A stretch of DNA of 64,000 nt from Minisyncoccota bacterium (GTDB lineage Bacteria > Patescibacteriota > Minisyncoccia > 2-02-FULL-40-12 > IGHO2-01-FULL-4-A): contig DATDXQ010000028.1 in the NCBI GenBank assembly GCA_036517175.1, positions 2,113-66,112 on the forward strand, read 5' to 3'. The notes beneath the pieces were generated by a model. It searched no databases. It saw nothing but the letters and a program-made list of their open reading frames with translations, and was not told where the DNA came from. Below, in pieces: positions 37,401-60,658 of the stretch (position 1 is its first letter; the number at the start of each line of letters is the position of its first letter). The translations under genes were made by a program, and so were the position numbers.

Positions 37401-38109
37401 CTGTCATACCAGTGATTGTTCCGCTACCGGAAAATCTAACTTTCAAGAACTCAACACCTGTTGCATTCAGTGTGATCGTCTTAGCTAATGGACTATCAGG
37501 AGCTAAAACAACAGACAATGGACCGGTTGCAACCGGAGTTGAACCTGGAGTCCTGGAATAGTTAGGGACCTGGTTTACTGAAGTGTAATTAGATCCTTTG
37601 GCATACCAATTGAACTCATTGTTGTTGATACAGAAAACTTTCTTGAAGAAATTGGCGTCATCAGCAACAGCCTGTGAGCCTGTTGTGTTAACCCAGTGGA
37701 GCATACCGACATCTTCACCGGTAGTCTCAACACCATAAACTTTCTCATCATTGGCTTCACAATTTCTGAACAAACCGGAAGTGCCGAAAGCATCTCTGGT
37801 TGCAGGTGAGACATTCTTAACAGCCGCGAAGCCGCCAAGGTGTCCATAGAAGCCGAATATTGCAGGGTTCAAGAACAATCTCTTGTAACCGTGCTCATTA
37901 ACAATATATACATCTGGATCGTCAGAACCGGCGGCGCTTACAACGTCACCCTCTTTCAATCCATAATCGCTAGGAGCTACAGCTGAGGCATTATTCACAC
38001 CAAAGAAGTAGACAAAACCTGCGACTAGCAACATCGCTGTTGCTATAGCAACAATCGTGGAAACATTTTTAAGTTCCCCGATGCCACCATAAGTCGTAGC
38101 TTTACTCAT
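34492..38109 (-). CDS. Large (1205 aa) secreted/anchored surface protein, candidate S-layer protein.
   Basis: N-terminal signal anchor. Composition dominated by T, S, G, N, D, A and V. No catalytic motifs. Positioned after the glycosylation locus. Confidence 0.55.
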   Translation of the reverse strand: MSKATTYGGIGELKNVSTIVAIATAMLLVAGFVYFFGVNNASAVAPSDYGLKEGDVVSAAGSDDPDVYIVNEHGYKRLFLNPAIFGFYGHLGGFAAVKNVSPATRDAFGTSGLFRNCEANDEKVYGVETTGEDVGMLHWVNTTGSQAVADDANFFKKVFCINNNEFNWYAKGSNYTSVNQVPNYSRTPGSTPVATGPLSVVLAPDSPLAKTITLNATGVEFLKVRFSGSGTITGMTVKRLGAGQTDDFANVYIYDGAKRLVSGKTFSSSNGEVTFLLNVPVSGWKDLSVIADMAAANTAGNVNFMQLLSVSASGTVSGLPLNGNNVSSSGASSGGVTLVRSGSLSNPTVGQKAAQVSEFKITANTEAASVKRLTLINGGTIKPSDMTNLKLTSGTSTWSGSMTSDGYAVFDLGSGFTIIKGGNAIFKVWADLAGKKSETIDFYFENDADTYAVGDQYGQGMAVTDTDIDAASDVTDLTLQGGVLTIAYNGPNATNIATNSTDVTLLRFSMTAVSNIEVRKTELVFCSDDDGNGTYAAVEDTTNGLSADVLDVKVINEDSGQVVMGPVDGSAFNEADDVSCPDNVDGAKNTFTDVIDLSAGQTYNFKVTADFDGDAVDDTGTADLDANSVVRMVLDSYPGADVTVMKYSGTNTAVATTDVVPNSDISGSNITLKGSSLTLGLAASPTDRTYIKGTNGAEFVGITFAAAQGSGLKVTDITLTGYVEDGTDGALTGTQNEGVDTSNAGVSIANAVSSVAIYDGGTGALISNTPNSNNLSVINTGTIKFSNLNWMLAAGETRTLLVKANLSNNTASGSEGDGYSFDIDGATDVTAIDDSNNTVNNGNNSPNGGVTPTVVLTVKNSGNLTVAAAPATTAKAGVYWGQNGAEFSKFRFTATDEGQYLEEVTLQTGDTIADVIANVEKVYLTYKNKAGATITSEGVFDTKASVSFAWTGDNRPYVPADSSLDVTVKADMKTKAEGATNAVNFSIDFSGGGANEFRSVGESGTVTSGTDADIVNRAGNNMYAYRVFPKFTNLSASSGGNAIGGNKEVLRFTIEAVGLADSKLLFDGGVINSSGSILFDTVASGQTNANMTLTFLGADDNVTYGTDILETAQSGTDMVASLSFGTSGTGQDLEISGGSSKTIYATTTFAGFATNGDYFQLVLRDEASQVNWVANSDVTDIGTANVANVLKTLPLNGTSFVTSGF

Positions 38110-49696: not shown

Positions 49697-50671
49697 TTAA
49701 GCTAAATAGGAATGGGTCGACTGTACAGCCATTGCTCCCTCACCCACTGAAGATGCGACTCTTTTAACAGAACTGAATCTAGCATCGCCTGCCGCGAAAA
49801 CACCTGCTTGAGATGTCTCCATATGTACCGGCACAGAACCATCTAATCTATTATTAACAAACTGCCCAGTAAGAATATAACCATTCTTGTCTTTTTCAAC
49901 ACAACCATCAAGCCACAAAGTCTTTGGTCTTGCACCAATTAGTATAAATAACCTATCGGCTGGAACAATGCTTTCATCGTTATTAGTCTTCAATCTTATT
50001 TCTTCCAGATGCTCAACCCCTCTGCATTCCACAAGAGATGTATTTTCATGCACATGAACATTACCATAATCCACGATTCTTTTTATAAGATACTCGCTCA
50101 TTTTGTCCTTGATGGAATCACCCCTAACTAACAGATGTATTTCACAACCTGTACATCTTGCCAAATGCACAACAGCCTGCCCGGCAGAATTAGCGCCACC
50201 CACAACATATAATTTCTTGTCATTATACACAGAACTAAGTGAGGGGGAACCATATGAAATCCCATTGCCAAGGAATCTAGCAAGACCCGAAACAGTAAGG
50301 GTCTGGTATTGAACTCCGAGTGCCAATATAACTGCCCGAGACACAATCACATCTCCCTCGTCGCTAATAATGGTCTTCCTGTCTCCATCACAAACTAGTC
50401 TATTGGCCCTGAATGGAGCCAAAAAATTAGTGTTAAATTTTGCGGCCTGCGCCACTGCCCGGCGAACTAAATCTTGACCAGTCAAACCATCTGGAAATCC
50501 AAGAAAATTTTCAATAAGTGTCGAGGTGCCTGCCTGACCTCCAAACTGAGTTTGTGCATCTATAAGGACGGTAGACAATCCCTCAGAAGAAGCGTTAACA
50601 GCAGCAGAAAGGCCCGCTGGTCCTCCACCGACTATGCATAAATCATATTCATTATTAGTCACCTTGATCAC
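49697..50671 (-). CDS. Thioredoxin-reductase-like FAD/NAD(P) flavoprotein lacking the CxxC redox disulfide.
   Basis: YDLCIVGGGPAGL FAD motif. VVGGANSAGQAV NADPH motif. No CATC-type motif between them. Confidence 0.65.
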   Translation of the reverse strand: MIKVTNNEYDLCIVGGGPAGLSAAVNASSEGLSTVLIDAQTQFGGQAGTSTLIENFLGFPDGLTGQDLVRRAVAQAAKFNTNFLAPFRANRLVCDGDRKTIISDEGDVIVSRAVILALGVQYQTLTVSGLARFLGNGISYGSPSLSSVYNDKKLYVVGGANSAGQAVVHLARCTGCEIHLLVRGDSIKDKMSEYLIKRIVDYGNVHVHENTSLVECRGVEHLEEIRLKTNNDESIVPADRLFILIGARPKTLWLDGCVEKDKNGYILTGQFVNNRLDGSVPVHMETSQAGVFAAGDARFSSVKRVASSVGEGAMAVQSTHSYLA

Positions 50672-50755: not shown

Positions 50756-51157
50756 CTAATATTGCCGTTGTGCACCTGCTGGGTAAACCAGACAGGAATA
50801 TTGTCCAGCCTTAAAATAAATGCATTCTTCGTCAACAATTCTAGCTACTTCAGCGATCCTCTCGAGAAGAGCAGGGATTCTATTCTTGCCCTCAAAAGAA
50901 ACTTCATAAACCCTGTGACGATCTCTATAAACTACTCTCTGTTTATTTATCCAAAGGCCAAAATTAGCAACCACGGAGGAGGTAAATGCTCCAAACTCTC
51001 TGGACAAAAAATTCTGCAAATACTCCTCAACTGTCTCTCCTCCAATTATTATATTTAACTTGTTTTCCGGGATATAAAATACTGCTGGCCTACCAAGATC
51101 AACAAGTCTGTACTTAGATCTATCATTAAATTCCCGCCACCTACTTTTATTTTTCAA
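50756..51157 (-). CDS. Hypothetical protein (first gene of a three-gene operon).
   Basis: 133 aa. No recognisable motif. TTG start. Confidence 0.35.
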   Translation of the reverse strand: MKNKSRWREFNDRSKYRLVDLGRPAVFYIPENKLNIIIGGETVEEYLQNFLSREFGAFTSSVVANFGLWINKQRVVYRDRHRVYEVSFEGKNRIPALLERIAEVARIVDEECIYFKAGQYSCLVYPAGAQRQY

Positions 51158-51164
51158 GGCTCAC

Positions 51165-51410
51165 CTATCCAGAAACGGAATTTACATGAAAGTGGTCACC
51201 CTGTGAGACAACATTAAATCTCTGGCCACAGCGACAAATAAAAGCAGGTGAAGCTGATGTTCTCCGATCACCCACAAGAATAGAATGATGGAATCCAACC
51301 TCACCAGTGTTTTCATTTTTTAGACCATTCCTACCACAACCACAGGTAATATCTATGGCAACCATATTTTTGCTTATAGGCTCTATCCTAATACCCATGA
51401 TACCCTTCAT
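51165..51410 (-). CDS. Small zinc-ribbon protein.
   Basis: 81 aa. CGCG...CRCG Cys pairs. ATGA overlap with the upstream gene. Confidence 0.45.
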   Translation of the reverse strand: MKGIMGIRIEPISKNMVAIDITCGCGRNGLKNENTGEVGFHHSILVGDRRTSASPAFICRCGQRFNVVSQGDHFHVNSVSG

Positions 51411-51712
51411 CCCTGTCCTCTCAGGTTTTCTACTCTATCCTTTTCATTTACATCCACCGCCATTCTTGTTCCGCCCCCGGCAAGACCCATATCACTTCCC
51501 AAAATCTCAAGGATTATATCCTCAGCCAATCCTTGCCTTCGACAACTAGCGATCGCGCCCGCAATCATAAGTTCCTGGAATTTTAGAGCCATCGCGTCAA
51601 CAACCGGATCACCGCTCTGAGTATCTTGACGTTGTGCTCTTAAGGCGGCCAAATGTAGGATTAATGCACCCTTGGCCATGCCTGCCACAAATTCATTATC
51701 TCGTCCACTCAT
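51407..51712 (-). CDS. Hypothetical protein.
   Basis: ATG at 51710-51712 with a GGAG SD (MSGRDNEF...). The ORF-track TTG start at 51790 is probably an over-extension. Confidence 0.4.
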   Translation of the reverse strand: MSGRDNEFVAGMAKGALILHLAALRAQRQDTQSGDPVVDAMALKFQELMIAGAIASCRRQGLAEDIILEILGSDMGLAGGGTRMAVDVNEKDRVENLRGQG

Positions 51713-51854
51713 GTCATCTTCTCCAATTTTAAATAGCACTTTGATTATACTGCCCAATATAGTTTTTGTCAAATTAAGATAGCACTTCAAATATTAGTTT
51801 AGTGCATATCTTTGCAAATCAAAACCGCCAATAATGGCGGGTGGCAAGATACTC

Positions 51855-52318
51855 CTATAAATTTTTTTCTAGAAATAACCTAGCTTTCCTAAATGCTTCA
51901 CCTCGATGAGATATTTTATTCTCATCCTCTGTCGTCATTTCAGCCAAAACTAAATTGGTACCTTCAGGAACAAATAGCCCACTGTAGGGCATCCCTGGTT
52001 GAAACTTTGCTCTAGGAGCTTCCAGTAATTGTCCATAGACTTTACCTGAAAAGAAATACTCATCGCCACTTGGTGCAACAACCACAAAGACCTTTCAGCA
52101 ACGCCTTCATTGGATTCACTTTCCTTGAATAGCATGCGATACCTATTTGCCCGATCGTGTAATAAGATCCCTTCAAATTGAGTAAGGGCAAATCTTCCAA
52201 GTTTCTTCAGAATCACACAAACTTCTGGATTATTCCCGTTTACTTCAAGTTCTTTTTCAATTTCGCCAATAAATACTTGAATTGTGACTTCAACTGTAAT
52301 TTTAGACAACATATCCAT
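51855..52318 (-). pseudogene. Candidate frameshifted gene: two overlapping ORFs in different frames.
   Basis: The 122-aa ORF (52318 to 51950) and the 76-aa ORF (52085 to 51855) overlap by 135 nt. Together they would read as one roughly 150-aa protein. Confidence 0.35.
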
Positions 52319-52449
52319 TGTCTAACTACTATTTTAAAGAATAAACCAACAATACCATAGAAATATTGTATTGTAAAGTACATTGCTGAGCTGGGACTTA
52401 GTTGGAAATCGATATTATTGAATATCCAAGAGATTTACGCTTTCGCAAA

Positions 52450-52485
52450 TTAAAAAGCCGAGCATAACTCGGTCCTACATTTTAT
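52450..52485 (-). terminator. Rho-independent terminator.
   Basis: gccgagc-ataa-ctcggtc hairpin. Minus-strand T-run with a conserved TTTTTAATTTGCGAA tail. Confidence 0.5.
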
Positions 52486-52487
52486 GA

Positions 52488-52700
52488 TTAGGTTTTACTT
52501 TTAAAATGGTCGAACTTATACCAAAGATCATCAAAATACGCCTTACAAGATGTGCAATCAGCAAAATGCAGAAGATCTTCATATGTTAGTCCGCTAACAC
52601 ACATCTTATGAAATTGCCCCACAGTGAAGTGGGTTCCTAGAGGAATTTCTAATCCAGTTGGTTTTGGTTTCTTAAATCTCTTTAATAACCATACTAGCAT
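52488..52700 (-). CDS. Small Cys/His-containing hypothetical protein.
   Basis: 70 aa. AGGAG SD. TTGACA-N17-TATTGT promoter at 52732-52760. Confidence 0.45.
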   Translation of the reverse strand: MLVWLLKRFKKPKPTGLEIPLGTHFTVGQFHKMCVSGLTYEDLLHFADCTSCKAYFDDLWYKFDHFKSKT

Positions 52701-52731
52701 TTTAGTCTCCTGTTATTAAGGAATAGGAAAA

Positions 52732-52760
52732 ACAATACTTCTTCTTGTTAGCATTGTCAA
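52732..52760 (-). promoter_or_regulatory. Sigma70-like promoter TTGACA-N17-TATTGT.
   Basis: Exact -35 hexamer and 17-nt spacer. Lies 30 nt upstream of the AGGAG SD of the 52700 gene. Confidence 0.5.
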
Positions 52761-52793
52761 TCTATTGGGGAAGGTTACTTAAGGGAGTAAGAA

Positions 52794-53870
52794 TTACTTT
52801 TTATTGTTCTGCAAAGGGTGGGATTTATTCTTCTCTACCCTTTCTATCATAAATTTTACAGCCTCGTTCGTATTGATAAATTGTAGCTTTATATCTGGAA
52901 GGTTGTTGTGAAATACCCTAAATATTTCATCCGCAAAAGCTTGTCCAATCATAGGAACCTTATCAAAATCAAATACGACAGATTTAAATTTATCTAAACC
53001 AGACAATACTCTACGTGCTTGGGAGCGAGAAACAAATACACCACCTATTGTATACAGCTTTATCTTAACTTCAGTTTTATCAAATCCTTGATAACCGTCC
53101 TCATTTTCTCCAGTATATTTTCTAAATATATCGTTTAGGTGCCTATCTGAATCTATCGAAATAGAAAAACTAACTTTAGTACCCTTTCTTATAGCTTTTG
53201 GTTTTTGTAAGAAAACATCATTAATTCTGTTGTTTACTATAACTAGTCTGTATCCAAAACTATCTAAATTAAACAGGTCGCCAGCCCTTGAAGTAAAGAA
53301 AATACCCTCACCAGAATGAGATTTAGGTTGTGTGGTTGTTTTTCCTTTCAATAAATCCTGAATGGCCTCGAGCTCCGATTTAAGAGTTCTTTTGACCATT
53401 ATGTTTTTATATACTCCAATTCCAGAATCTATTACATCAAAGAAAAGCTTCTTATTTTCAATTCTGACCTCGACCGTAATATTCTTTGATTTTGAATGCT
53501 CAATAGCATTGTTGAGCATCTCAGAAAAAGCATAAGTAAAAATACTCCTAACATTTTCCTTGAGGGTCAAGATAAGGGGAAACTTATTCTCTAGTTCATT
53601 CAAAACCTTGTGCTCTTCCAGCCCCTTATTCTTTAACGTTTTTTTTATTTTGTTAGGAAAAAGTTCTAAGTGGTTCGCAGCGTATTTAGGATTTAGATAT
53701 GAAGCCTTACTAGTTGAGCCGGTCTTTACTATTTTTCTCTCATTGACCAACTGTTTTAATAAAAAGCTTATATATTGCCTAGAAACGCCAAATATAGAGA
53801 CTAGATCCCTAGTTTTTAATTGTTTTTTTTGCTCTAAAATATTTAGTATTGTTTCTTTAGACAACTTCAT
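52794..53870 (-). CDS. Single-polypeptide wHTH + GHKL (HATPase_c) ATPase + STAS-like (DUF4325) protein.
   Basis: N-terminal HTH (LKTRDLVSIFGVSRQYISFLL). N-box NNAIEHS and G-box DSGIGV. C-terminal VVFDFDKVPMIGQAFADEIFRV, typical of DUF4325. Tandem TTGACA boxes with TATACT 7 nt from the ATG suggest a leaderless start. Confidence 0.6.
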   Translation of the reverse strand: MKLSKETILNILEQKKQLKTRDLVSIFGVSRQYISFLLKQLVNERKIVKTGSTSKASYLNPKYAANHLELFPNKIKKTLKNKGLEEHKVLNELENKFPLILTLKENVRSIFTYAFSEMLNNAIEHSKSKNITVEVRIENKKLFFDVIDSGIGVYKNIMVKRTLKSELEAIQDLLKGKTTTQPKSHSGEGIFFTSRAGDLFNLDSFGYRLVIVNNRINDVFLQKPKAIRKGTKVSFSISIDSDRHLNDIFRKYTGENEDGYQGFDKTEVKIKLYTIGGVFVSRSQARRVLSGLDKFKSVVFDFDKVPMIGQAFADEIFRVFHNNLPDIKLQFINTNEAVKFMIERVEKNKSHPLQNNKK

Positions 53871-54133
53871 TGACTTAAGTATATCAGTTGTAAAGCGGTT
53901 GTCAAGTAGTCTGGGGACGGTTGTCAACTTGGTTGTAAAGTTAGTGGCCGAGCTAGGTCTTCGTTGCTTCGCTCCTCCGAAGCTTTAGCAAAGGAGGGGG
54001 CATTTATTGATACCGAATATCCGGGAGATTTACTATTTTGCTACAAATTAAAAAGCGCCCTTCGATAAACTCAGAGCACTTCTTAATCTCAGTTTACACT
54101 GAGCTTGTCGAAGTGTTGCGGGGACAATCAATC

Positions 54134-54219
54134 GTTGGAACTACTTCTAAGCGATTAGTTGAGAAAGTTTTTAGGTATTACTTAAAAATAAAACCTATCG
54201 ATTAAGATAGGTGTTGGAA
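54134..54219 (-). repeat. Conserved 3'-end element copy A (GATTAGTTGA box plus terminator hairpin), flanked by GTTGGAA.
   Basis: Homologous to 54741-54840 and 58916-59030. Hairpin cctatc/gatagg. Confidence 0.55.
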
Positions 54220-54222
54220 ATA

Positions 54223-54633
54223 TCATCTACGGCCAGACCAGTTTTTACCACAGTCATCGCACCAATAGGCAGTAAAATCATATTCAGATTTTGATTTTAG
54301 GTTTGGGTGTTGGCATCTTTTTTGCAGTTCTATCAATTCATTTTCTACTACAGTAAGTTGGGCTTGAACTCCCTTTTTTCGAGACTCAATTTTTTTTCGG
54401 AGCTCAATTACATTATTCTGGGTAGCCTGAACAGATTCCTTAAATTCTTGACATCGGCAAGCGTTACAGCTTGTCCCAACTTTAATATTTTCTGACAATC
54501 CAATGTGATTATGATAATTGCGTGGGTGGCCACATTCACAGATTAATTCTGGATTGTAACGGCCAAAGACAGAGTGTGATACTTCGCTCACGCTCAACTC
54601 TTTGTTGTAAATTATCTGCCTAGAGAATATCAC
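54223..54633 (-). CDS. Zn-finger / coiled-coil small protein.
   Basis: 136 aa with no internal Met. CECGH...CNACRC and C-terminal CQHP...CDDCG. Central coiled coil. Non-ATG start; the exact start is uncertain. Confidence 0.45.
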   Translation of the reverse strand: MIFSRQIIYNKELSVSEVSHSVFGRYNPELICECGHPRNYHNHIGLSENIKVGTSCNACRCQEFKESVQATQNNVIELRKKIESRKKGVQAQLTVVENELIELQKRCQHPNLKSKSEYDFTAYWCDDCGKNWSGRR

Positions 54634-54740
54634 CCAAAAACCTTTTAATCAATATCCCTGCTGTCCCTCGATTTCCTCGGGATAAATCATTCCTTCGATA
54701 GTTCGGCAGGCACTTCGGCCGTGAGCCCAGCACCGAATGG

Positions 54741-54840
54741 CTCACTACTTGATCAGGGCAAGACTGCAAGCGATTAGTTGAAAGGGTGTTTAAATATTAC
54801 TTAGAAAATAAAAAAGAGGGATAAATCCCTCATCTTGGAA
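54741..54840 (-). repeat. Conserved 3'-end element copy B.
   Basis: GATTAGTTGA box at 54772-54781 plus hairpin gaggga/tccctc overlapping the RidA stop codon. Confidence 0.55.
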
Positions 54841-55276
54841 TAGCAGCAATTCCTCTGATTTCTACCATCGTATCTTCCAAGGGGTACTCCCACGGCACTT
54901 CTGATACCCAAACCTGACACCTGGCAGGCATGTTTCCTTTTTCTCTTGTAATACCGTATTGAGCAAAAAATTCACAGTAGGCAGAATTATAATCTTCACG
55001 GGATTTCTTTCGGTCTTTACAATCTTTCAAAAATACATCCATTGCTACAAACGAGCTGGCATCACCGCCTGCCTCCTCAACGATAGCAAGCATATTTTTC
55101 AATACTTGAGCGGTCTGTGGCCCATAACCACCTTCAACAACTGGCTCGCCATCACGGCTTTTATCATTTCCTGTTTGCCCAGCAAGAAAAAGAATTTTGT
55201 GGTTCATCGGGTCTACTAATACACCCTGACTGTATGCACCTGGAGTGGGAGTCTTATCAGTAAAAATATTCTGCAT
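54830..55276 (-). CDS. RidA/YjgF/Endoribonuclease L-PSP family protein.
   Basis: GAYSQGV..., GPQTAQVLKNM, VDVFL and the C-terminal PARCQVWVSEV...VEIRGIAA pattern. AAGGAG SD at the ATG at 55276. Confidence 0.65.
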   Translation of the reverse strand: MQNIFTDKTPTPGAYSQGVLVDPMNHKILFLAGQTGNDKSRDGEPVVEGGYGPQTAQVLKNMLAIVEEAGGDASSFVAMDVFLKDCKDRKKSREDYNSAYCEFFAQYGITREKGNMPARCQVWVSEVPWEYPLEDTMVEIRGIAAIPR

Positions 55277-55324
55277 TGTCTTTCTCCTTGTCAAAAATCA
55301 AAGTGATATTATCCTATCATATAT

Positions 55325-55591
55325 TTACAATAAGTCTAGCCCGGCTGATTTATCAGAACAAAAAAGCCGAGGGTTAGTCGGCATTTTGGGTAGTGCCCAA
55401 TTTGTAGGTGGATGGCGCAAGGGCTTCTTTATTCCACAATCCCAACAGTGACCACAATCGCTTATTAAATAATCGTGGTCGCAGGCCCACTTACCTACAT
55501 CGTCAGCACTAATTCTTTTTTTGAGGCCACTCAAACGAATTCTTAACACAAGATATTTAGCATTAGGGGCACGTTCGTATTCTGCTTTCAT
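55325..55591 (-). CDS. Small Cys-rich protein.
   Basis: CDHDYLISDCGHCWDCG cluster. The ATG at 55589-55591 lies 1 nt after the stop of the upstream gene. A hairpin/terminator is embedded in its last 15 codons. Confidence 0.4.
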   Translation of the reverse strand: MKAEYERAPNAKYLVLRIRLSGLKKRISADDVGKWACDHDYLISDCGHCWDCGIKKPLRHPPTNWALPKMPTNPRLFCSDKSAGLDLL

Positions 55592-55592
55592 T

Positions 55593-55811
55593 TTATTTCC
55601 AACCCAATACTTTCCAACCGTGTTCAGCATATAGGCCAAGGCCGTCTTTTCCTTCACAGCATTCAAGGAATGCATTTTCTGTATCAGACCAATAGAAATC
55701 GCCTGTAGAAACTTTTACACCAGGTCCTTCAAAGCGAAGCTTTACTGGTCTCGCCGTTCTCTTGGATGGTTCTGTGGTTTTCCAATTTCTATTTCTTGCT
55801 TTGGTAGCCAT
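55593..55811 (-). CDS. Small basic hypothetical protein (P1).
   Basis: 72 aa. GGAGGAAGAGA SD. Promoter/operator module upstream. Confidence 0.5.
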   Translation of the reverse strand: MATKARNRNWKTTEPSKRTARPVKLRFEGPGVKVSTGDFYWSDTENAFLECCEGKDGLGLYAEHGWKVLGWK

Positions 55812-55846
55812 TCTCTTCCTCCGATAATTTCAATGAACCTGGAAAC

Positions 55847-55875
55847 AAAATACACCTTATTGGTGTATTTTGCAA
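55847..55875 (-). promoter_or_regulatory. Promoter TTGCAA-N17-TATTTT with an embedded operator palindrome AAAATACACC-N5-GGTGTATTTT.
   Basis: Perfect 10-bp inverted repeat spanning the spacer. A near-identical copy sits at 57824-57852. Confidence 0.55.
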
Positions 55876-56072
55876 AATGCCAACCAGGTCTGGGACCCGG
55901 GAAAATTGTACTCGCCGCCTACTGGTGCTGGGCATACCACGACTTCTGTCTCTGGCATTTCGGAGCTCTCGCTCCTCAACTGTCACTCGCCAAAAGGTAT
56001 GTACCACACCTGCTGGCTTTGGTGTTTGGGCAAATCAAAAAGCGGCTAATGCCGCTTTAAACAACTGTTCAA

Positions 56073-56357
56073 TTAGTAAATAGCGAGGGTTTGTCCATTT
56101 ATTACTATCGCCACATCCCTATCCAACGAAGTACATTCAGAATCTACAACAAAATCATCGTTTTTCGTCCGTATCAAAAGAACCAGATGTGCTGGAAATC
56201 CCTCCTTCACTACAAGATCAAAACTAATATCCCCGCTAGAAACATCGCGTAGTTTTTTTCTTGTTTCAAAAACCGCTTCTGAATTTTCTATTGTACGCCC
56301 AGTCTCCTCCAGTGCTATAATCCGATCTTCTTGAGCAGATAACTGCCTTATTTTCAT
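56073..56357 (-). CDS. Hypothetical protein.
   Basis: 95 aa. ATG at 56355-56357 with an AGGAG SD. TTGACA-N17-TATTAT promoter at 56386-56414. The ORF-track start at 56435 is an over-extension. Confidence 0.45.
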   Translation of the reverse strand: MKIRQLSAQEDRIIALEETGRTIENSEAVFETRKKLRDVSSGDISFDLVVKEGFPAHLVLLIRTKNDDFVVDSECTSLDRDVAIVINGQTLAIY

Positions 56358-56623
56358 AACGACTCCTATTTTAAAAGACAATACAATAATACAACCTACA
56401 TGTGGTATTGTCAATCTACACTTTGGCCTGCACATCCACTCTATTGAGCTCTGTATTTCTTCGTTCTCACTCAGTCACTGGCCTCAGTACAAAATTACCT
56501 TCATTCGCTTGTTGCAGAGCTTCGACAGAATTGCCTGCCTGCCGTAGCTTTAGCAAAGTAGGGTGAGGAGTTGGTAAAAATAAAACCGAGGAGAGCTCGG
56601 TATTGGTAAAACGTAATTATTTA

Positions 56624-57358
56624 TTAGTATTCTGCGACTGTTAAATTCATGGATAAATCTAAAAAGGAATCTACGCAGAGAAATGGCCCACCGGGGGTTT
56701 CAAATGTTCTTTTATTTTGTAAGACTGGTTCGACACACACATAATCTTTAGGTGCATCGGTCCACAAGACAAGTTGGGATTTGACTGGCGCAAACGCTCC
56801 TCCAAGCTCCATCATTATATTTTTGCTTGGCATAGCGATAAGAATGGCCTCACTACTTATTCCTACTGATCTCGATTCACAAGAAAAACCATTGTAGGCA
56901 GCTCCACCATTCAAAACTCTTACAGTGCTCTCGTCTTTACATCCAAAATACGGATGAAATGCTGGAAGCACTGGGGCTGGTATAACTTCTTTGTCATCCA
57001 TCCGATCTATACGTAATGTCATCTTCAATCCATTAGTATATGCGTAGACTCCAATCTCGTATCCTAAAGACCATGGATAGCTTTCATTCCCAGGATGATG
57101 AAAAATTAGTTTGGCATTATTAGATTCGAGTTTTACATCTCGGGCCTCCAAATCTCGTAGATAACCATGCTTCTTCTTGCTTCTTGGGGATTGACCAAAC
57201 CATGGAGCACATATATGACAGCCACCACGTGCCTTATCTCCAATTTGGCGCCAAGGATACAATATCTCTAGCTTATCTACTACGGCAGAGGTAATAGTCC
57301 CGCCAGTAGAAGAGAGGTGAATTTCCGTTTGGCCATTTCTAATAACAATATCTTCCAT
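56624..57358 (-). CDS. D-hexose-6-phosphate mutarotase / aldose 1-epimerase family (YeaD-like).
   Basis: GGCHICAPWFG and HGYLR motifs. ATG at 57356-57358 with a GGAGG SD. TTGACA-N17-TATTTT promoter at 57400-57428. Confidence 0.6.
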   Translation of the reverse strand: MEDIVIRNGQTEIHLSSTGGTITSAVVDKLEILYPWRQIGDKARGGCHICAPWFGQSPRSKKKHGYLRDLEARDVKLESNNAKLIFHHPGNESYPWSLGYEIGVYAYTNGLKMTLRIDRMDDKEVIPAPVLPAFHPYFGCKDESTVRVLNGGAAYNGFSCESRSVGISSEAILIAMPSKNIMMELGGAFAPVKSQLVLWTDAPKDYVCVEPVLQNKRTFETPGGPFLCVDSFLDLSMNLTVAEY

Positions 57359-57565
57359 CGTGTCCTCCAGACCTAGCAAATTGTTAAATAGATAATAAAA
57401 AAATAGCACTTCATTGCTATTTTGTCAATATATTCTTGCCCTTCGTGATTACACTCAGGGCTGCGTCGGCCTTCGCCTCCTTGTTGCAGAAGTGTTGCGT
57501 GATTGGCAACAAATACTGCTTGATTTGAAAGAAGTCTACACTTTTGCAAATTAAAAAGTGCGATA

Positions 57566-57793
57566 TTATCGCACTTCAAATCTTCGGCCAAACCAATAAC
57601 AGCCGGGTTCTTCTTGAAGTTCCATTCGGCCACCCTCGTTATGCCATTGGGCAGGATTGTCTGCAAAAAGAGTTCTGCACTTATCGGAAGGTATAAATTC
57701 TTTTACAGTATATTTTCTTCCTTTTGTCAGCGCTGGTCCAATACCTTCCATTTTTTCATCAACACATTCGACCGTCTGGCCTTCTTGAAACAT
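57566..57793 (-). CDS. Small hypothetical protein (P2).
   Basis: 75 aa. AAGGAG SD. The operator-containing promoter at 57824-57852 is paralogous to the P1 promoter. Confidence 0.5.
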   Translation of the reverse strand: MFQEGQTVECVDEKMEGIGPALTKGRKYTVKEFIPSDKCRTLFADNPAQWHNEGGRMELQEEPGCYWFGRRFEVR

Positions 57794-57823
57794 ACACTTC
57801 TCCTTGTTAATTTAGCTGAAAAC

Positions 57824-57852
57824 AAAATACACCAATAAGGTGTATTTTGCAA
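57824..57852 (-). promoter_or_regulatory. Promoter TTGCAA-N17-TATTTT with operator palindrome AAAATACACC-N5-GGTGTATTTT (copy 2).
   Basis: Same palindrome arms as 55847-55871. The loop is AATAA rather than TTATT. Confidence 0.55.
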
Positions 57853-57949
57853 CTTATGCCAATCTTGTCTCATTTGTTGCGGAACTCTTACGCAGTTGAC
57901 ACCTTTTGATACCGAATATACAAAAGATTTGCAATTTTGCTCTGGTATA

Positions 57950-58146
57950 AAAAGTGAACCCCCGGGTCGTGGCCACGACATCGGGGGTTAATGTGCACGG
58001 ATTGTTTACCGTGCTGCCTGTTTTCGACCTTGCGGTCGGGCGACCTCCAATAGGGTTTGGGGAGCCTAGGCTCCTTATCCGCCTGTGGCGGACCTACCTT
58101 CGAACCCTCCTCTCGAGAAGCTACCTCAAGAGAAACTCAATGTTGT
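57950..58146 (-). ncRNA. Standalone roughly 200-nt GC-rich structured RNA with its own promoter and terminator. Class not identified.
   Basis: TTGACT-N17-TATACT promoter at 58153-58181. GC-rich terminator hairpin at 57957-57989 plus T5. No ORF. Much more GC-rich than the surrounding sequence. Confidence 0.55.
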
Positions 58147-58346
58147 GAATTAAGTATAGCATATCCTAAGTATAAAGTCAATAGCAACCAAAAACAGCCC
58201 TTGAAAGCTGTTTTTGCAAAGTGCCAAATGGGTCTGGGACCTGGAAATTTGTTGCAGAATTAGGACTTCGTTGGTATTTAATATTACCGGGTATCAAAGA
58301 AATTTATCAGTTTAATCTTGTAAATTAAAAGTCCGCAAAGCGGACA

Positions 58347-58529
58347 TTAGATAGATTTGGGAATTTTACCTTTACCATTGCAGGTCGGGCAGGTTGTAGT
58401 TCTGGTTTCTGGCATTGGAAAACCAAATAATCCTATATATGCAGCGTTCATGATTGTTTCTGTCTTTGAGCCAGACCCGCTGCAATTCCAGCAGATCTGC
58501 TCTTTATTTTGATCTTTGTTGGTTGCCAC
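58347..58529 (-). CDS. Small zinc-ribbon protein.
   Basis: 61 aa. CWNC...CPTC. ATG with a GGGGGTGA SD. TTGACA-N17-TATTGT promoter at 58568-58596. Confidence 0.5.
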   Translation of the reverse strand: MATNKDQNKEQICWNCSGSGSKTETIMNAAYIGLFGFPMPETRTTTCPTCNGKGKIPKSI

Positions 58530-58698
58530 CATACTATCACCCCCTATCTGTGTTAAGGAACAATAAAACAATACGCCATTTCTGGCGTATTGTCAATATT
58601 TGCACTTCGGCCTGTTGGCCTCAGTACAAAATTACCTTCGTAATTTATTTTTGTACCCTTCGGCTGTTGCCTACGGGCACTGCGTCGCCTTCGCTCCT

Positions 58699-58718
58699 TG
58701 TTGCGGGGGCAGGATTTG
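58699..58718 (-). repeat. 20-nt direct repeat of the tRNA-fMet 3' end (att-like).
   Basis: TGTTGCGGGGGCAGGATTTG is identical to 60584-60603 inside or adjacent to the tRNA gene. Confidence 0.6.
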
Positions 58719-58915
58719 GTTTCGCCTCTCGTTGGCTTCCGCCTCCTCGGGCTAACCACCACCTCGCGTGACTTTATGCCAATTGCATAAAGTCACATGC
58801 TCCGGCGTTCAAATACTGACGAAAGTGACACGGGTCACTTCCTCTCCCCGCAAACATATACGATAAATATAAACGGCTCACATGGTGAGCCGTTTATATT
58901 TTGGGGCAATCAAAT

Positions 58916-59030
58916 GTTGGAACCCTTCGACTACGCTCAGGACAGGCTTGTAAAAGATTAGTTGAGAATATATTTAGATATTATTTGGAGAATAAAAACG
59001 GCATTTAGCCGTATATATTTGTTGGTGAAG
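58916..59030 (-). repeat. Conserved 3'-end element copy C.
   Basis: GATTAGTTGA box at 58956-58965. Hairpin cggc/gccg at the stop codon of the 59005 gene. GTTGGAA / GTTGGTGAA flanks. Confidence 0.5.
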
Positions 59031-59472
59031 TCTCAAGCAGTAGGTCGCAATCTCTGCATACTAATCCGAATCCGCAACCTTGCCCGATTTCTTCAACCCT
59101 CTTTTCGTTTGAATGAGAACAACTTTTCTGTTTCCTTGTGAGTCCAGTCTTACCTTTGGCCTTTTTTCCTTCGACTACTTTGATAGAAAAACTGTGCTTA
59201 TACCGTTTCCCGCTACGATGAGCAGATTCTGTGAAAATTATCTTTGTACCCAGCGGGATTTTATCTAAAAAATTACTCGACTTTTCTATCTTCTCTGGTA
59301 TCAGGCAACTTTTGCCTTTCCTTGTTTCGACCTTACCGTGAGTAGACCATTTCTCATTAACAACGCCATTAACTACGAATTGTGTTGGAGTACGATTCGG
59401 TTCTGTTTTCTCCAGAACTCCTGTAGCAGTATATGTATACCATCCATCTATAGCATCTTTTCGTTTAGCCAT
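59005..59472 (-). CDS. Hypothetical protein with a C-terminal zinc ribbon.
   Basis: 155 aa. C-terminal CSHS...GCGFGLVCRDC. AAAGGAGAA SD. 1-nt TAATG overlap with the upstream gene. Confidence 0.45.
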   Translation of the reverse strand: MAKRKDAIDGWYTYTATGVLEKTEPNRTPTQFVVNGVVNEKWSTHGKVETRKGKSCLIPEKIEKSSNFLDKIPLGTKIIFTESAHRSGKRYKHSFSIKVVEGKKAKGKTGLTRKQKSCSHSNEKRVEEIGQGCGFGLVCRDCDLLLETSPTNIYG

Positions 59473-59774
59473 TACTTAAGTTCTCCTTTCGGCACATCTT
59501 CCGTCAACACAACAGTTGTCACTAATCCTAAGCCACTATTGAATTTCCAGTTTTGACCATCCCAATCCATACCATGGTCGAAAGTATCAGTAAATAATCT
59601 TCCTTTCTTAACTCCGATAGCATCACTGCCATCTTCGTAAGATACCAGGCCATAGCCAGTGTTTTTGTAGGCGAACTTATCGCCTGGCTTTAGATTCTTT
59701 AGCCGTTTTAGACGGTCTTCAGGAGTTAATGCGATTGAAACCGCTTTATTCTGCTTAGTCTTTTTTGCCATCAT
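59472..59774 (-). CDS. Hypothetical protein.
   Basis: 100 aa. Translationally coupled to the 59005 gene. Confidence 0.45.
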   Translation of the reverse strand: MMAKKTKQNKAVSIALTPEDRLKRLKNLKPGDKFAYKNTGYGLVSYEDGSDAIGVKKGRLFTDTFDHGMDWDGQNWKFNSGLGLVTTVVLTEDVPKGELK

Positions 59775-59943
59775 TCACCTCTAAGTTGAATAAGGACTGG
59801 AAAGATATTAGCAAACAAGGGGTTCCAAATCAATGTCCCCGATGTCATTCACGACATTCGCTAAGCATGCTCCGCATACAACTTGTTGTTGTGCGGGGTT
59901 CGCCAAGTTTTACAATGTCCCAGAAATGTACTAATCTTTTGAA

Positions 59944-60402
59944 ATGGATTTTGAATATTTTAACTCAAGGAAAGAAAAAGTCCGAGAAACTTACAATAAA
60001 CAAAAGGCTATTTTCTGTCCCTTTCTTCAGGCTCAGGTTGTTTTAAACTCAGATGGATTTCATCACTTACAATTCTCCGATAGAAGAGAGCGAGGCAAAG
60101 AAGAGCAACTATTAAAATTTAATCTATTACCTCTGGCGCTCGATATTATTAAAAAATCAGGAACGCTTCAGGAATACAGAAAGGAACCGGTTAGAATCGG
60201 GCGCACATCAAAAGACGGTTTTTCTACAACTAAAATCGCTGAATATTTTGGATTCGTAGCCATAGTCGGAGAAAAGAAAATTAAGATAAGGGTTATTGTG
60301 AGACGAATCGGCGATGGGAATTTTAGCTTTTGGAGTGTAATGCCAGACAGTAAGCTGAAAGGCGGTCAAAGATTATATGATTACGGAATCGAAGATAATT
60401 AA
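59944..60402 (+). CDS. Hypothetical protein.
   Basis: 152 aa. TTTACA-N17-TAATCT promoter-like sequence close to the ATG. Terminator hairpin at 60404-60440. Confidence 0.4.
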   Translation: MDFEYFNSRKEKVRETYNKQKAIFCPFLQAQVVLNSDGFHHLQFSDRRERGKEEQLLKFNLLPLALDIIKKSGTLQEYRKEPVRIGRTSKDGFSTTKIAEYFGFVAIVGEKKIKIRVIVRRIGDGNFSFWSVMPDSKLKGGQRLYDYGIEDN

Positions 60403-60585
60403 AACTAAAAAACGCCCCATGAGGCGTTTTTTAGTGTGCCTGTCTTCAGCTTTGGAAATCCTTAGCTGAACGGGGCTTGCGCCCACAAGCACGATGTAAA
60501 TGTAGCATACTTTAGTTAAAAAAAGCAAGTCCTGTTGATAATTCTATGAAAAACAGGAGATTTCTCTCCTGTTTCTCCTGCTCTG

Positions 60586-60658
60586 TTGCGGGGGCAGGAT
60601 TTGAACCTGCGATCTTTGGGTTATGAGCCCAACGAGATGACCACTTCTCCACCCCGCG
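60586..60658 (-). tRNA. Initiator tRNA-fMet (anticodon CAT).
   Basis: Cloverleaf folded by hand. C1:A72 mismatch. D-stem GAGA/TCTC with A11:U24. Three G-C pairs at the base of the anticodon stem (GGG/CCC). T-loop GGTTCAAATCC. Terminator hairpin at 60548-60580. Confidence 0.8.

What the first reader, a model, noticed from the sequence alone, without database searches (positions are those of the whole stretch)
55868..58258. Conserved upstream module GGTCCCAGACC ... TTGGCA(N2-4)TTGCAAAA plus palindrome, shared by three transcription units including the RNA gene
Copy 1 (55868-55897) precedes the P1 promoter. Copy 2 (58212-58241) precedes the RNA-gene promoter. A partial copy (57845-57862) precedes P2. 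Each is followed by a different perfect palindrome at the same position. ORF-track entries 55833..56060 and 58057..58263 (both containing FAKCQxGLGPG) are just translations of this motif. I tested the TGGCA..TTGCA resemblance to sigma54 promoters and rejected it on spacing (6-8 nt instead of 10).
Basis: seen in the sequence. Interest (0 to 1): 0.5.

Follow-up and report, generated by a model that had tools for sequence, protein, structure and literature searches.

The report
Repeated cassette junctions beside initiator tRNA
The repeated motif is real, but it is not one shared regulatory site: it is the boundary sequence of small gene cassettes stacked next to the initiator tRNA gene of an uncultivated groundwater bacterium, joined in this genome to a promoter that carries a hairpin.

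Summary
All motifs lie on the minus strand, which is the coding strand here. GGTCCCAGACC occurs exactly twice, and TTGGCA-N2/4-TTGCAAAA occurs three times against 0.03 expected.

The module has two unrelated halves.

- **Right half.** TTGCAA, 17 nt and TATTTT form a sigma-70-type promoter. Its spacer is an 11-bp-stem hairpin. Four hairpin promoters of this kind occur in the window, all inside a 9.5-kb island of small orphan genes. The architecture matches the PeSL promoter-terminator cassettes of T4-type phages.
- **Left half.** CAAnTTTCC(C)GGGTCCCAGACCnnnTTGGCA always follows an 8-9-nt core, YYGCAACA(A). That core is also the 3' end of the initiator tRNA-fMet gene at 60585-60658.

In three related metagenomic contigs the same left half abuts the terminator of a convergent gene, once directly after a complete tRNA-fMet. 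It therefore cannot be a promoter-upstream operator.

Relatives also show inserts of 0.2 and 1.3 kb bounded by the core, placed exactly at the tRNA 3' end. The window repeats the last 20 nt of its own tRNA 1.9 kb downstream.

The best reading is cassette-junction sequence in a tRNA-linked array of shuffled cassettes in a CPR bacterium. No recombinase was found and the mechanism of movement is inferred. Sigma-54 is correctly rejected.

The parts
55846..55909 (-). Module copy 1: ACAATTTTCCCGGGTCCCAGACCTGGTTGGCA, TT, TTGCAAAA, hairpin. GGTCCCAGACC lies at 55887-55897, TTGGCA at 55878-55883, the -35 TTGCAA at 55870-55875, the hairpin at 55846-55872 and the -10 TATTTT at 55847-55852. The ATG of the 72-aa gene is at 55811.
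   Evidence: 97% identical over 32 nt to L133 1611-1642
58189..58257 (-). Module copy 2: core CTGCAACA at 58250-58257, then AATTTCCAGGTCCCAGACCCATTTGGCA, CT, TTGCAAAA, and the hairpin CAAAAACAGC..GCTGTTTTTG at 58189-58216.
   Evidence: (terminator-like site 58216-58189)
57823..57882 (-). Module copy 3 (partial): core CCGCAACA at 57875-57882, then AATGAGACAAGATTGGCA, TAAG, TTGCAAAA. The hairpin lies at 57823-57849 with its loop flipped relative to copy 1. The -35 is at 57847-57852 and the -10 at 57824-57829. The ATG of the 75-aa gene is at 57793.
   Evidence: (I1, D7)
60585..60658 (-). Initiator tRNA-fMet (C1-A72 mismatch, three G-C pairs in the anticodon stem). Its 3' end ...CCCCCGCAACA carries the YYGCAACA core.
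58699..58718 (-). Exact 20-nt direct repeat of the tRNA-fMet 3' end (CAAATCCTGCCCCCGCAACA). It looks like an attachment site and sits at a cassette junction.
   Evidence: 0.01 expected; p<0.0005
58258..58335 (-). Junction unit (about 70 nt, family T1-A) that ends in the core immediately upstream of module copy 2.
   Evidence: alignment A2
57883..57960 (-). Junction unit that ends in the core immediately upstream of module copy 3. It follows the terminator of the RNA-gene candidate.
   Evidence: D3; 90% identical over 42 nt to L242 2352-2393
57477..57567 (-). Junction unit with core CTGCAACA at 57482-57489. It is followed by a different left-end piece (CAAGGAGGCGAAGG...) and by the hairpin promoter at 57428-57400.
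58568..58596 (-). Hairpin promoter of the same architecture, TTGACA-ATACGCCAGAAATGGCG-TATTGT, with an 11-bp palindrome between -35 and -10.
   Evidence: z = -7.3
57400..57428 (-). Hairpin promoter TTGACA-AAATAGCAATGAAGTGC-TATTTT, with a 9-bp palindrome.
56386..56414 (-). Related promoter TTGACA-N17-TATTAT with an imperfect palindrome. It is a member of repeat family D1.
58153..58181 (-). Consensus-like promoter TTGACT-N17-TATACT of the RNA-gene candidate, 8 nt downstream of the copy-2 hairpin.
57950..58146 (-). Non-coding RNA candidate forming its own cassette (strongly structured, with its own promoter and terminator, no known family).
   Evidence: z = -4.78
51000..60584 (-). Island of about 14 small, mostly orphan genes. 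Each has its own promoter and terminator, and they are separated by mosaic repeated intergenic pieces.

Best explanation
The module is a composite cassette junction. It lies in a 9.5-kb island of small, self-contained gene cassettes, each with its own promoter, one to three genes and its own terminator. The island sits directly downstream of the initiator tRNA-fMet gene of a CPR/Patescibacteria bacterium.

Each junction reads: terminator of the previous cassette; a junction unit of about 70 nt; an 8-9-nt core YYGCAACA(A), identical to the last bases of the tRNA; an optional left-end piece; then the promoter of the next cassette.

It is carried at the core-proximal end of several unrelated cassettes.

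The A-tract, stem and T-tract of that hairpin probably also stop incoming transcription, as PeSL elements do.

**Shown:** the repeats, their order, their recurrence in other genomes at cassette boundaries, inserts bounded by the core at the tRNA 3' end, and the swapping of upstream pieces between homologous genes.

**Inferred:**
- cassettes are gained and shuffled by recombination at the core and junction units, either site-specific through an unidentified recombinase encoded elsewhere, or homologous between the repeats;
- the left-end piece is a recombination-site arm or a passively co-inherited boundary;
- the hairpin promoters are active.
For: **The motifs are non-random.**

**The core marks junctions.**
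- CYGCAACAA occurs 5 times, all on the tRNA strand and all intergenic between 56.5 and 58.7 kb, against 1.24 expected.
- In a table of the 17 YYGCAACA sites in the tRNA-adjacent regions scanned in four genomes, three are the 3' ends of the tRNA-fMet genes, 13 lie at cassette junctions and one is inside a gene.
- The last 20 nt of the tRNA are repeated exactly at 58699-58718.

**Inserts sit precisely at the tRNA 3' end.** Three genomes share the flank tRNA-CCGCAACA|GAG(C/A/T)AGGAGAA. Between core and flank the window has no insert, L133 has 1.3 kb and L242 has 0.21 kb. Each insert is closed by a second core.

**The left half travels with cassette ends.**
- L133 has a complete tRNA-fMet 3' exon followed by CAAGTTTCCCGGGTCCCAGACCTGGTTGGCA and then the terminator of a convergent 374-aa gene.
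- L248, from another sample, has an 83%-identical gene with TCTGCAACAATTTTCCCGGGTCCTAGACCTGGTTGGCA after a core that is not part of a tRNA.
- L249 keeps only ACCTGGTTGGCA.

**The junction unit is conserved.** It aligns across four genomes with 64% mean column identity.

**Upstream pieces are swapped.** The 72-aa gene homolog in L242 is preceded by the piece that lies at 59762-59850 in the window (81% identity).

**The promoter reading is consistent.**
- The hexamer spacing is a constant 17 nt.
- The distance from the -10 to the start codon is 30-41 nt in all island promoters.
- Only 4 of 40 promoter-like sites in the window have a perfect palindrome of 9 bp or more spanning -35 to -10, and all four are in the island. 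At a looser 8-bp cutoff, control loci give 2 of 706.

**There is a published precedent.** PeSLs are sigma-70 promoters with a stem-loop placed between or overlapping the -35 and -10 boxes. They flank orphan genes and mediate shuffling (PMC2839356, PMC4122927). Partial tRNAs scattered through islands by serial integration are described for tycheposons (bioRxiv 10.1101/2020.12.28.424599).
Against: - No integrase or other recombinase is present in the 64-kb window or in the related loci.
- Beyond the 8-9-nt core, the junction units are not significantly similar to the tRNA (p = 0.3-0.7). Most are therefore not demonstrable decayed tRNA copies, and an 8-mer could also serve simply as microhomology.
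- All recovered strain contigs of the window organism are identical, so there is no within-species presence/absence evidence.
- TTGCAA/TATTTT matches only 8 of 12 consensus positions and fell below the threshold of the promoter scan.
- No transcript data exist.
- The GGTC-CCA-GACC hairpin shows no covariation. Its flanking pairs are lost in copy 2.
Confidence: 0.55

Rival explanations
1. The whole module is a cis-regulatory site, an operator or activator site on the GGTC-N3-GACC palindrome plus TTGGCA, that co-regulates three promoters including that of the RNA gene.
For: - GGTCCCAGACC is identical at 11 of 11 positions in two copies, and it is a small palindrome.
- In copy 1 it lies about 35-45 nt upstream of a -35-like hexamer.
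- The outer arms of the island's spacer palindromes share AATAC...GTATT. That could be a common operator.
Against: - In L133, L248 and L249 the same sequence abuts the 3' end of a convergent gene, with no promoter following.
- The distance to the functional-looking promoter differs by about 40 nt between copy 1 and copy 2.
- Copy 3 lacks the palindrome yet keeps the promoter.
- A homolog of the 72-aa gene uses another upstream piece.
Confidence: 0.12
2. The repeats are inert leftovers of segmental duplication and divergence of a promoter-bearing intergenic segment. The boundary position has no role in recombination, and the module has no function of its own.
For: - Identity among copies is modest (76-83%).
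- No recombinase was found.
- The tRNA-likeness of most junction units is not significant beyond 8 nt.
- Small genomes can carry such mosaics passively.
Against: - The same pieces recur in at least four genomes, always in the same order relative to the core.
- The left half is 97% identical between the window and L133 while the flanks are unrelated.
- Inserts lie precisely at the tRNA 3' end and are closed by a second core.
- An exact 20-nt repeat of the tRNA end is present.
Confidence: 0.2
3. The element acts at the RNA level. The module is a transcribed tRNA 3' trailer or 5' leader. Its two hairpins (GGGUC-CCA-GACC and the A/U-flanked stem) would act as a processing signal and an intrinsic terminator or attenuator, not as promoter DNA.
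For: - In L133 the module lies directly after a functional tRNA, so it would be transcribed as a trailer.
- The copy 1 segment folds with z = -4.4.
- The copy 2 hairpin is called terminator-like.
- The hairpins carry A-tracts and T-tracts on both sides.
Against: - The constant 17-nt hexamer spacing and the 30-41 nt from the -10 to the start codon fit promoters better than terminators of free length.
- No alternative promoter is seen upstream of copies 1 and 3.
- The small hairpin is not maintained in copy 2, and there are no compensatory changes.
- In L133 and L248 the following hairpin has its T-tract on the opposite strand.
Confidence: 0.08
4. The element is a sigma-54 (-24/-12) promoter, TGGCA...TTGCA.
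For: It resembles TGGCAC-N5-TTGCW at the level of the two pentamers.
Against: The GG-to-GC offset is 8 nt in copies 1 and 2 and 10 nt in copy 3, not the invariant 12. The spacing also varies between copies.
Confidence: 0.01

Closest known systems
PeSL (promoter-early stem-loop) regulatory cassettes of T4-type phages (Arbiol et al. 2010, PMC2839356; Comeau et al. 2014, PMC4122927)
   Same: - A sigma-70-type promoter carries a stem-loop placed between or over the -35 and -10 boxes, followed by a Shine-Dalgarno sequence and a start codon.
- The elements flank small orphan genes in a hypervariable region.
- The conserved sequence extends over about 100 bp.
- Upstream pieces are exchanged between genes.
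- No dedicated recombinase has been identified.
   Different: - The host here is a bacterial (CPR) chromosome, not a T4-type phage.
- The region upstream of the -35 is GC-rich (the module), not AT-rich.
- The junctions carry an extra core shared with a tRNA 3' end.
- Promoter and terminator activity, and mini-circles, are untested here.
tRNA-targeted integrative elements and islands built by serial integration (for example tycheposons of Prochlorococcus, bioRxiv 10.1101/2020.12.28.424599)
   Same: - The island starts at a tRNA gene.
- Repeats of the tRNA 3' end lie inside the island (20 nt exact).
- In relatives, inserts sit exactly at the tRNA 3' end and are closed by a second copy of the end sequence.
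- Several boundary remnants lie in tandem.
   Different: - There is no integrase or hallmark mobility gene.
- The units are only 0.2-1.9 kb.
- Most internal junctions share only 8-9 nt with the tRNA.
- The junction units form their own conserved family.
Integron cassette arrays (attI x attC)
   Same: - There is a one-sided array of small, mostly orphan-gene cassettes, mostly in the same orientation.
- Cassettes are separated by a family of recombination-site-like repeats.
- Those repeats share only a short core with the acceptor site.
   Different: - There is no IntI integrase.
- The junctions are not attC-type imperfect palindromes with RYYYAAC/GTTRRRY boxes.
- The cassettes carry their own promoters and terminators.
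- The acceptor is a tRNA 3' end.
Sigma-54 -24/-12 promoter
   Same: TGGCA and TTGCA pentamers are present.
   Different: The spacing is wrong and variable (8-10 nt against 12 nt).

Membership tests
Sigma-54 promoter | GG and GC doublets exactly 10 nt apart (TGGCAC-N5-TTGCW) | tested here: not met
   The GG-to-GC offset is 8 nt in copies 1 and 2 and 10 nt in copy 3.
Sigma-70-type promoter | -35 and -10 hexamers near TTGACA and TATAAT, separated by 16-18 nt | tested here: inconclusive
   Copies 1 and 3 have TTGCAA-17-TATTTT, which matches 8 of 12 positions and falls below the 9-of-12 cutoff of the scan. Sister promoters of the same architecture score 10-11 of 12 (58596, 57428, 56414). Copy 2 has TTGCAA-17-TGTTTT, a poor -10.
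Sigma-70-type promoter | Sensible distance to a ribosome-binding site and start codon | tested here: met
   There are 30-41 nt from the -10 to the ATG in all island promoters, each with a GGAG-type ribosome-binding site.
Sigma-70-type promoter | Transcription start 5-9 nt downstream of the -10 | not testable with these tools
   No transcript data are available.
PeSL-type composite promoter-terminator | Stem-loop between or overlapping the -35 and -10 boxes of a sigma-70-like promoter | tested here: met
   Perfect palindromes of 9-11 bp span -35 to -10 at 55875, 57852, 57428 and 58596. That is 4 of 40 promoter-like sites in the window; at a looser 8-bp cutoff, control loci give 2 of 706.
PeSL-type composite promoter-terminator | Flanks orphan genes in a hypervariable region and is exchanged between genes | tested here: met
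   The island genes have no informative Pfam, PHROG or NCBIfam hit. The 72-aa gene has a different upstream piece in L242.
PeSL-type composite promoter-terminator | AT-rich tract upstream of the -35; located in a T4-type phage genome | tested here: not met
   The sequence upstream of the -35 is the GC-rich module. The context is a bacterial chromosome carrying ftsZ, ftsA, rpsU and a class II ribonucleotide reductase. There is no DNA match to phages.
PeSL-type composite promoter-terminator | Demonstrated promoter and terminator activity; mini-circle formation | not testable with these tools
   This requires reporter assays and inverse PCR.
tRNA-targeted integrative element (att repeats) | Direct repeat of the tRNA 3' segment bounding the inserted DNA | tested here: met
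   There is a 20-nt exact repeat at 60584-60603 and 58699-58718. The L133 and L242 inserts are closed by CCGCAACA plus the shared flank.
tRNA-targeted integrative element (att repeats) | Element-encoded integrase (tyrosine or serine recombinase) | tested here: not met
   None was found in the window or in L133, L242 or L248 by Pfam, PHROGs or NCBIfam.
tRNA-targeted integrative element (att repeats) | Internal junctions are recognisable partial tRNAs | tested here: not met
   Beyond the 8-nt core, 10 of 13 junctions are no more tRNA-like than shuffled sequence.
Integron | IntI integrase with an adjacent attI; attC hairpins with R''/L''/L'/R' boxes (GTTRRRY core) | tested here: not met
   There is no integrase. 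The junction-unit consensus has no RYYYAAC...GTTRRRY boxes.
Intrinsic terminator | G+C-rich stem followed by a T-run | tested here: inconclusive
   The copy 2 hairpin is listed as terminator-like. The copy 1 and 3 stems are A/T-rich, with 4 G-C pairs of 11, and are followed by TTT(C/T).

The most novel reading that the evidence does not exclude
A clade of CPR/Patescibacteria bacteria may possess an integron-like cassette-capture system. The 3' end of the initiator tRNA-fMet gene would be the acceptor site. Small promoter-bearing cassettes, coding or non-coding, would carry a recombination site of about 70 nt that shares only the YYGCAACA(A) core with the tRNA. GGTCCCAGACC...TTGGCA would be one of its arm sequences. 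The recombinase would be unknown and encoded in trans.
Probability: 0.2. Interest if true: 0.75.

Novelty: new variant of a known kind. Interest (0 to 1): 0.45.

Why it matters
CPR bacteria have tiny genomes and few recognisable mobile elements, so how they acquire and shuffle accessory genes is poorly understood. This locus shows a concrete, sequence-defined architecture: a core shared with the initiator tRNA, a conserved junction unit, and hairpin promoters. Orphan-gene cassettes appear to be added and exchanged at that architecture. It combines features previously described separately for T4-type phage PeSLs and for tRNA-seeded genomic islands. If the junctions are true recombination sites, the consensus sequences given here allow direct searches for excised circles, empty sites and the responsible enzyme. 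If they are not, the result still guards against annotating the motif as a regulatory operator or as the two spurious plus-strand ORFs.

Tried and rejected
- **Rfam.** No family matched the RNA-gene candidate or the module, either over the whole window at gathering thresholds or over 55.3-59.0 kb at E up to 10.
- **Phage DNA.** A comparison of 55.5-58.8 kb against phage records found no match.
- **Relatives found through the ribonucleotide reductase** (genome collection). The nearest are Candidatus Yanofskybacteria MAGs and other Parcubacteria/Paceibacterota MAGs at 66-69% protein identity. They have neither the motif nor a tRNA-Met at this locus.
- **Viral scans**. The motif hits are coding sequence of an unrelated phage family. 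The hits to the tRNA 3' end are ordinary tRNA-fMet genes or attachment sites without the module.
- **Strain contigs L001-L015.** All are 99.6-100% identical to the window, so they give no polymorphism.
- **Homology of the RNA-gene candidate to the 210-nt insert of L242.** Rejected on alignment.
- **Most junction units as decayed tRNA copies.** Rejected beyond the 8-nt core by a shuffle test.
- **Function of the 374-aa cassette protein of L133.** No Pfam, PHROG, NCBIfam or PDB match. Its distant homologs in Kaiserbacteria and Doudnabacteria lack the cores and the module.
- **Sigma-54.** Rejected on spacing.
Full report
**Setting**

The window is a bacterial chromosome segment of about 40% G+C, with nearly all genes on the minus strand.
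- Exact-protein look-ups place it in groundwater metagenomes, including the Rifle aquifer data sets.
- Its class II ribonucleotide reductase is closest, at 66-69% protein identity, to Candidatus Yanofskybacteria MAGs and other Parcubacteria/Paceibacterota MAGs. The organism is therefore an uncultivated CPR/Patescibacteria bacterium whose species is not in the genome collection searched.
- The region 1-50 kb holds glycosyltransferase and cell-surface genes and metabolic genes. No recombinase is present.
- Between a thioredoxin-reductase-like gene (49697-50671) and a tRNA-Met gene (60585-60658, minus) lies a 9.5-kb island of about 14 small genes.
- Nearly all island genes lack Pfam, PHROG or NCBIfam matches.
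- Each island gene has its own promoter-like site and terminator-like hairpin. The scan found 25 terminator-like sites against 8.1 expected.
- The tRNA has a C1-A72 mismatch and three G-C pairs in the anticodon stem. By established identity rules these mark an initiator tRNA-fMet (my own knowledge applied to the sequence).

**The observation**

- GGTCCCAGACC lies at 55887-55897 and 58231-58241.
- TTGGCA-N2/4-TTGCAAAA lies at 55868-55883, 57845-57862 and 58212-58227. That is three copies against 0.03 expected.
- Copies 1 and 2 share 30 of 36 nt. Copies 1 and 3 share 76% over 62 nt, reaching into the 5' untranslated region.
- Copies 1 and 3 are followed by the same 11-bp stem with the 5-nt loop flipped. 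Copy 2 is followed by a different 10-12-bp stem.
- The CAAAA of TTGCAAAA is the foot of that stem.
- The plus-strand ORFs with FAKCQxGLGPG are translations of the motif.

**The right half is a promoter with a hairpin in its spacer**

In copies 1 and 3, TTGCAA is followed after exactly 17 nt by TATTTT. After a further 30-35 nt come a GGAG-type ribosome-binding site and the start codons of the 72-aa and 75-aa genes.

The same design recurs in the island with stronger hexamers:
- TTGACA-17-TATTGT at 58596;
- TTGACA-17-TATTTT at 57428;
- TTGACA-17-TATTAT at 56414;
- TTTACA-17-TATTGT at 52377.

These are mutually alignable (family D1). In every case the spacer is a palindrome whose outer arms run from the end of the -35 hexamer into the -10 hexamer.

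A scan of the whole window found 40 promoter-like sites. Only four have a perfect palindrome of 9 bp or more, and all four are in the island.

This is the architecture published for PeSLs of T4-type phages. [quoted passage not shown] Activity here is inferred. TTGCAA/TATTTT matches only 8 of 12 consensus positions, and the -10 of copy 2 (TGTTTT) is poor. A consensus promoter for the RNA-gene candidate (58181-58153) follows copy 2 just downstream.

**The left half belongs to cassette boundaries, not to promoters**

A metagenome scan for GGTCCCAGACC-N2-4-TTGGCA returned mostly chance hits in GC-rich DNA, plus one contig of 40% G+C, L133.

In L133...GGTTCGAATCCTCCCCCCGCAA, the 3' exon of an initiator tRNA-fMet, is followed directly by CAAGTTTCCCGGGTCCCAGACCTGGTTGGCA. 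This is 31 of 32 nt identical to window 55878-55909. Next comes the terminator of a convergent 374-aa gene.

Homologs of that gene led to two further contigs:
- L248 (83% protein identity, another sample) has TCTGCAACAATTTTCCCGGGTCCTAGACCTGGTTGGCA, again against the terminator of the gene. Here it follows a short core that is not part of a tRNA.
- L249 (80% identity) keeps only ACCTGGTTGGCA.

In three relatives, therefore, the piece sits at a gene's 3' end with no promoter after it. This excludes a role as an upstream operator.

In the window, copies 2 and 3 are preceded by the same core (CTGCAACA, CCGCAACA). Copy 1 is preceded by a degenerate version (GAGTACAA).

**The core and the junction unit**

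- CYGCAACAA occurs five times in the window, all on the tRNA strand and all intergenic between 56.5 and 58.7 kb, against 1.24 expected.
- The tRNA itself ends in CCGCAACA.
- The last 20 nt of the tRNA are repeated exactly at 58699-58718.
- Across the regions scanned in the window, L133, L242 and L248, 17 YYGCAACA sites were found. Three are the 3' ends of the tRNA-fMet genes, 13 lie at cassette junctions and one is inside a gene.
- Upstream of the core lies a unit of about 70 nt, conserved in four genomes with 64% mean column identity. Its consensus is ...AGCAAAnnnATAAATCTCTTGGATATTCGGTAnnATAAGnTGCCAACnAAGTCCnAnTTCCGCAACAAA.

I first read these units as decayed tRNA 3' halves. A shuffle test does not support that beyond the core. 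Only 58699-58718 and, less strongly, L242 3275 stand out as tRNA duplicates (p<0.0005 and 0.02); L242 2749, which also looks like a tRNA end, is only suggestive (p=0.10). The remaining ten junctions give p = 0.28-0.76. The units are better described as a repeat family of their own that shares 8-9 nt with the tRNA end.

**Evidence for insertion and shuffling**

Three genomes share the flank tRNA-CCGCAACA|GAG(C/A/T)AGGAGAA...terminator. The window has nothing between core and flank. L133 has a 1.3-kb cassette there, made of the module, the 374-aa gene and a junction unit. L242 has a 0.21-kb non-coding insert. Each insert is closed by a second core.

The 374-aa cassette is first after the tRNA in L133 but lies behind two tandem cores in L248.

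The 72-aa gene, which follows copy 1 in the window, is preceded in L242 by the piece found upstream of a different gene in the window (59762-59850, 81% identity).

These are the signatures expected of cassette gain and exchange at the junctions. Scattered partial tRNAs from serial integration are described for Prochlorococcus islands (bioRxiv 10.1101/2020.12.28.424599).

**What remains inferred**

- No recombinase was found, so site-specific and homologous mechanisms cannot be told apart.
- The strain contigs of the window organism are identical.
- The small GGTC-CCA-GACC hairpin has no covariation support. The only substitution (C to T in L248) is in the loop, and the extension pairs are absent in copy 2.
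- Whether the left half binds a protein, serves as a tRNA trailer when it lies first in the array, or merely hitch-hikes is open.

**Verdict**

The finding is a real, non-random repeat. The best reading is a composite of a cassette-boundary piece and a PeSL-like hairpin promoter, within a tRNA-fMet-linked array of orphan-gene cassettes in a CPR bacterium. It is a new variant of known kinds (PeSLs; tRNA-seeded islands) rather than a new regulatory motif. I found no paper describing such arrays in Patescibacteria in the searches I ran.

Noticed in passing
L242 2800-3069 (+); L133 2377-1640 (-); window 60585-60658 (-): The initiator tRNA-fMet of two relatives is split in the anticodon loop. In L242 the insert is a group I intron (Rfam RF00028, 73.8 bits, E = 8e-19). 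In L133 the homologous insert carries an extra LAGLIDADG-like ORF on the opposite strand. The window's tRNA-fMet has no intron. Group I introns in Patescibacteria tRNA genes are the subject of bioRxiv 10.1101/2025.07.03.662931.
   Followed up: partly
It has a consensus-like promoter (58181-58153) and a strong terminator, and its fold gives z = -4.78. There is no Rfam match and no homolog in the related loci. Its identity is unknown.
   Followed up: partly
window 55898-56040 (-): A GC-rich, strongly structured stretch lies between the terminator at 56058-56039 and module copy 1. Folded together with copy 1 (55840-56040), it gives z = -5.3. No promoter-like site precedes it, and it takes the place of the usual junction unit.
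   Followed up: no
window 55846-55872 and 57823-57849: The two 27-nt hairpins are perfectly complementary to each other. The stems are identical and the 5-nt loops are inverted (AATAA against TTATT), while the flanks remain in direct orientation. This is the signature of a hairpin loop-inversion event.
   Followed up: partly
window 58937-58998, 54753-54814, 54134-54195 (-): A second family of post-terminator repeats (TTTTATTyTCyAArTAATAyyTAAA...CTCAACTAATC) is 74-85% identical among its copies. It also occurs in L242 4871-4952 at 84-89% identity. It ends in GTTCCAACrwTTGATTGyCCC(C/A)GCAAC.
   Followed up: partly
window 58840-58853 (+) and 58767-58795: TCCTCTCCCCGCAA on the plus strand is an inverted copy of an L133-type tRNA-fMet 3' end (13 of 14 nt). 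Next to it lies the 29-nt palindrome GTGACTTTATGCAATTGGCATAAAGTCAC, which contains TTGGCATAAAGT, resembling copy 3. A 17-bp perfect hairpin lies at 58865-58901.
   Followed up: no
window 55868-55875, 57845-57852, 58212-58219: TTGCAAAA matches the core CTGCAACAA at 7 of 9 positions, and TTGCAA is itself a palindrome. The 21-30-nt left half may therefore lie between two core-like sites. This is an untested idea.
   Followed up: no
L255 and L256 2379-4832: In Kaiserbacteria contigs, the distant homolog (48% identity) of the 374-aa cassette gene sits between a 50-aa BacA fragment and a full bacA gene, as if inserted with duplication of the gene's 5' end. This orphan-gene family may itself be mobile.
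   Followed up: no
window 24882-45616 region and 1-26 kb: The rest of the window is a large cluster of glycosyltransferase (GT4), PMT_2 and methyltransferase genes, together with a 1205-aa protein that has no Pfam domain (34492-38109).
   Followed up: no
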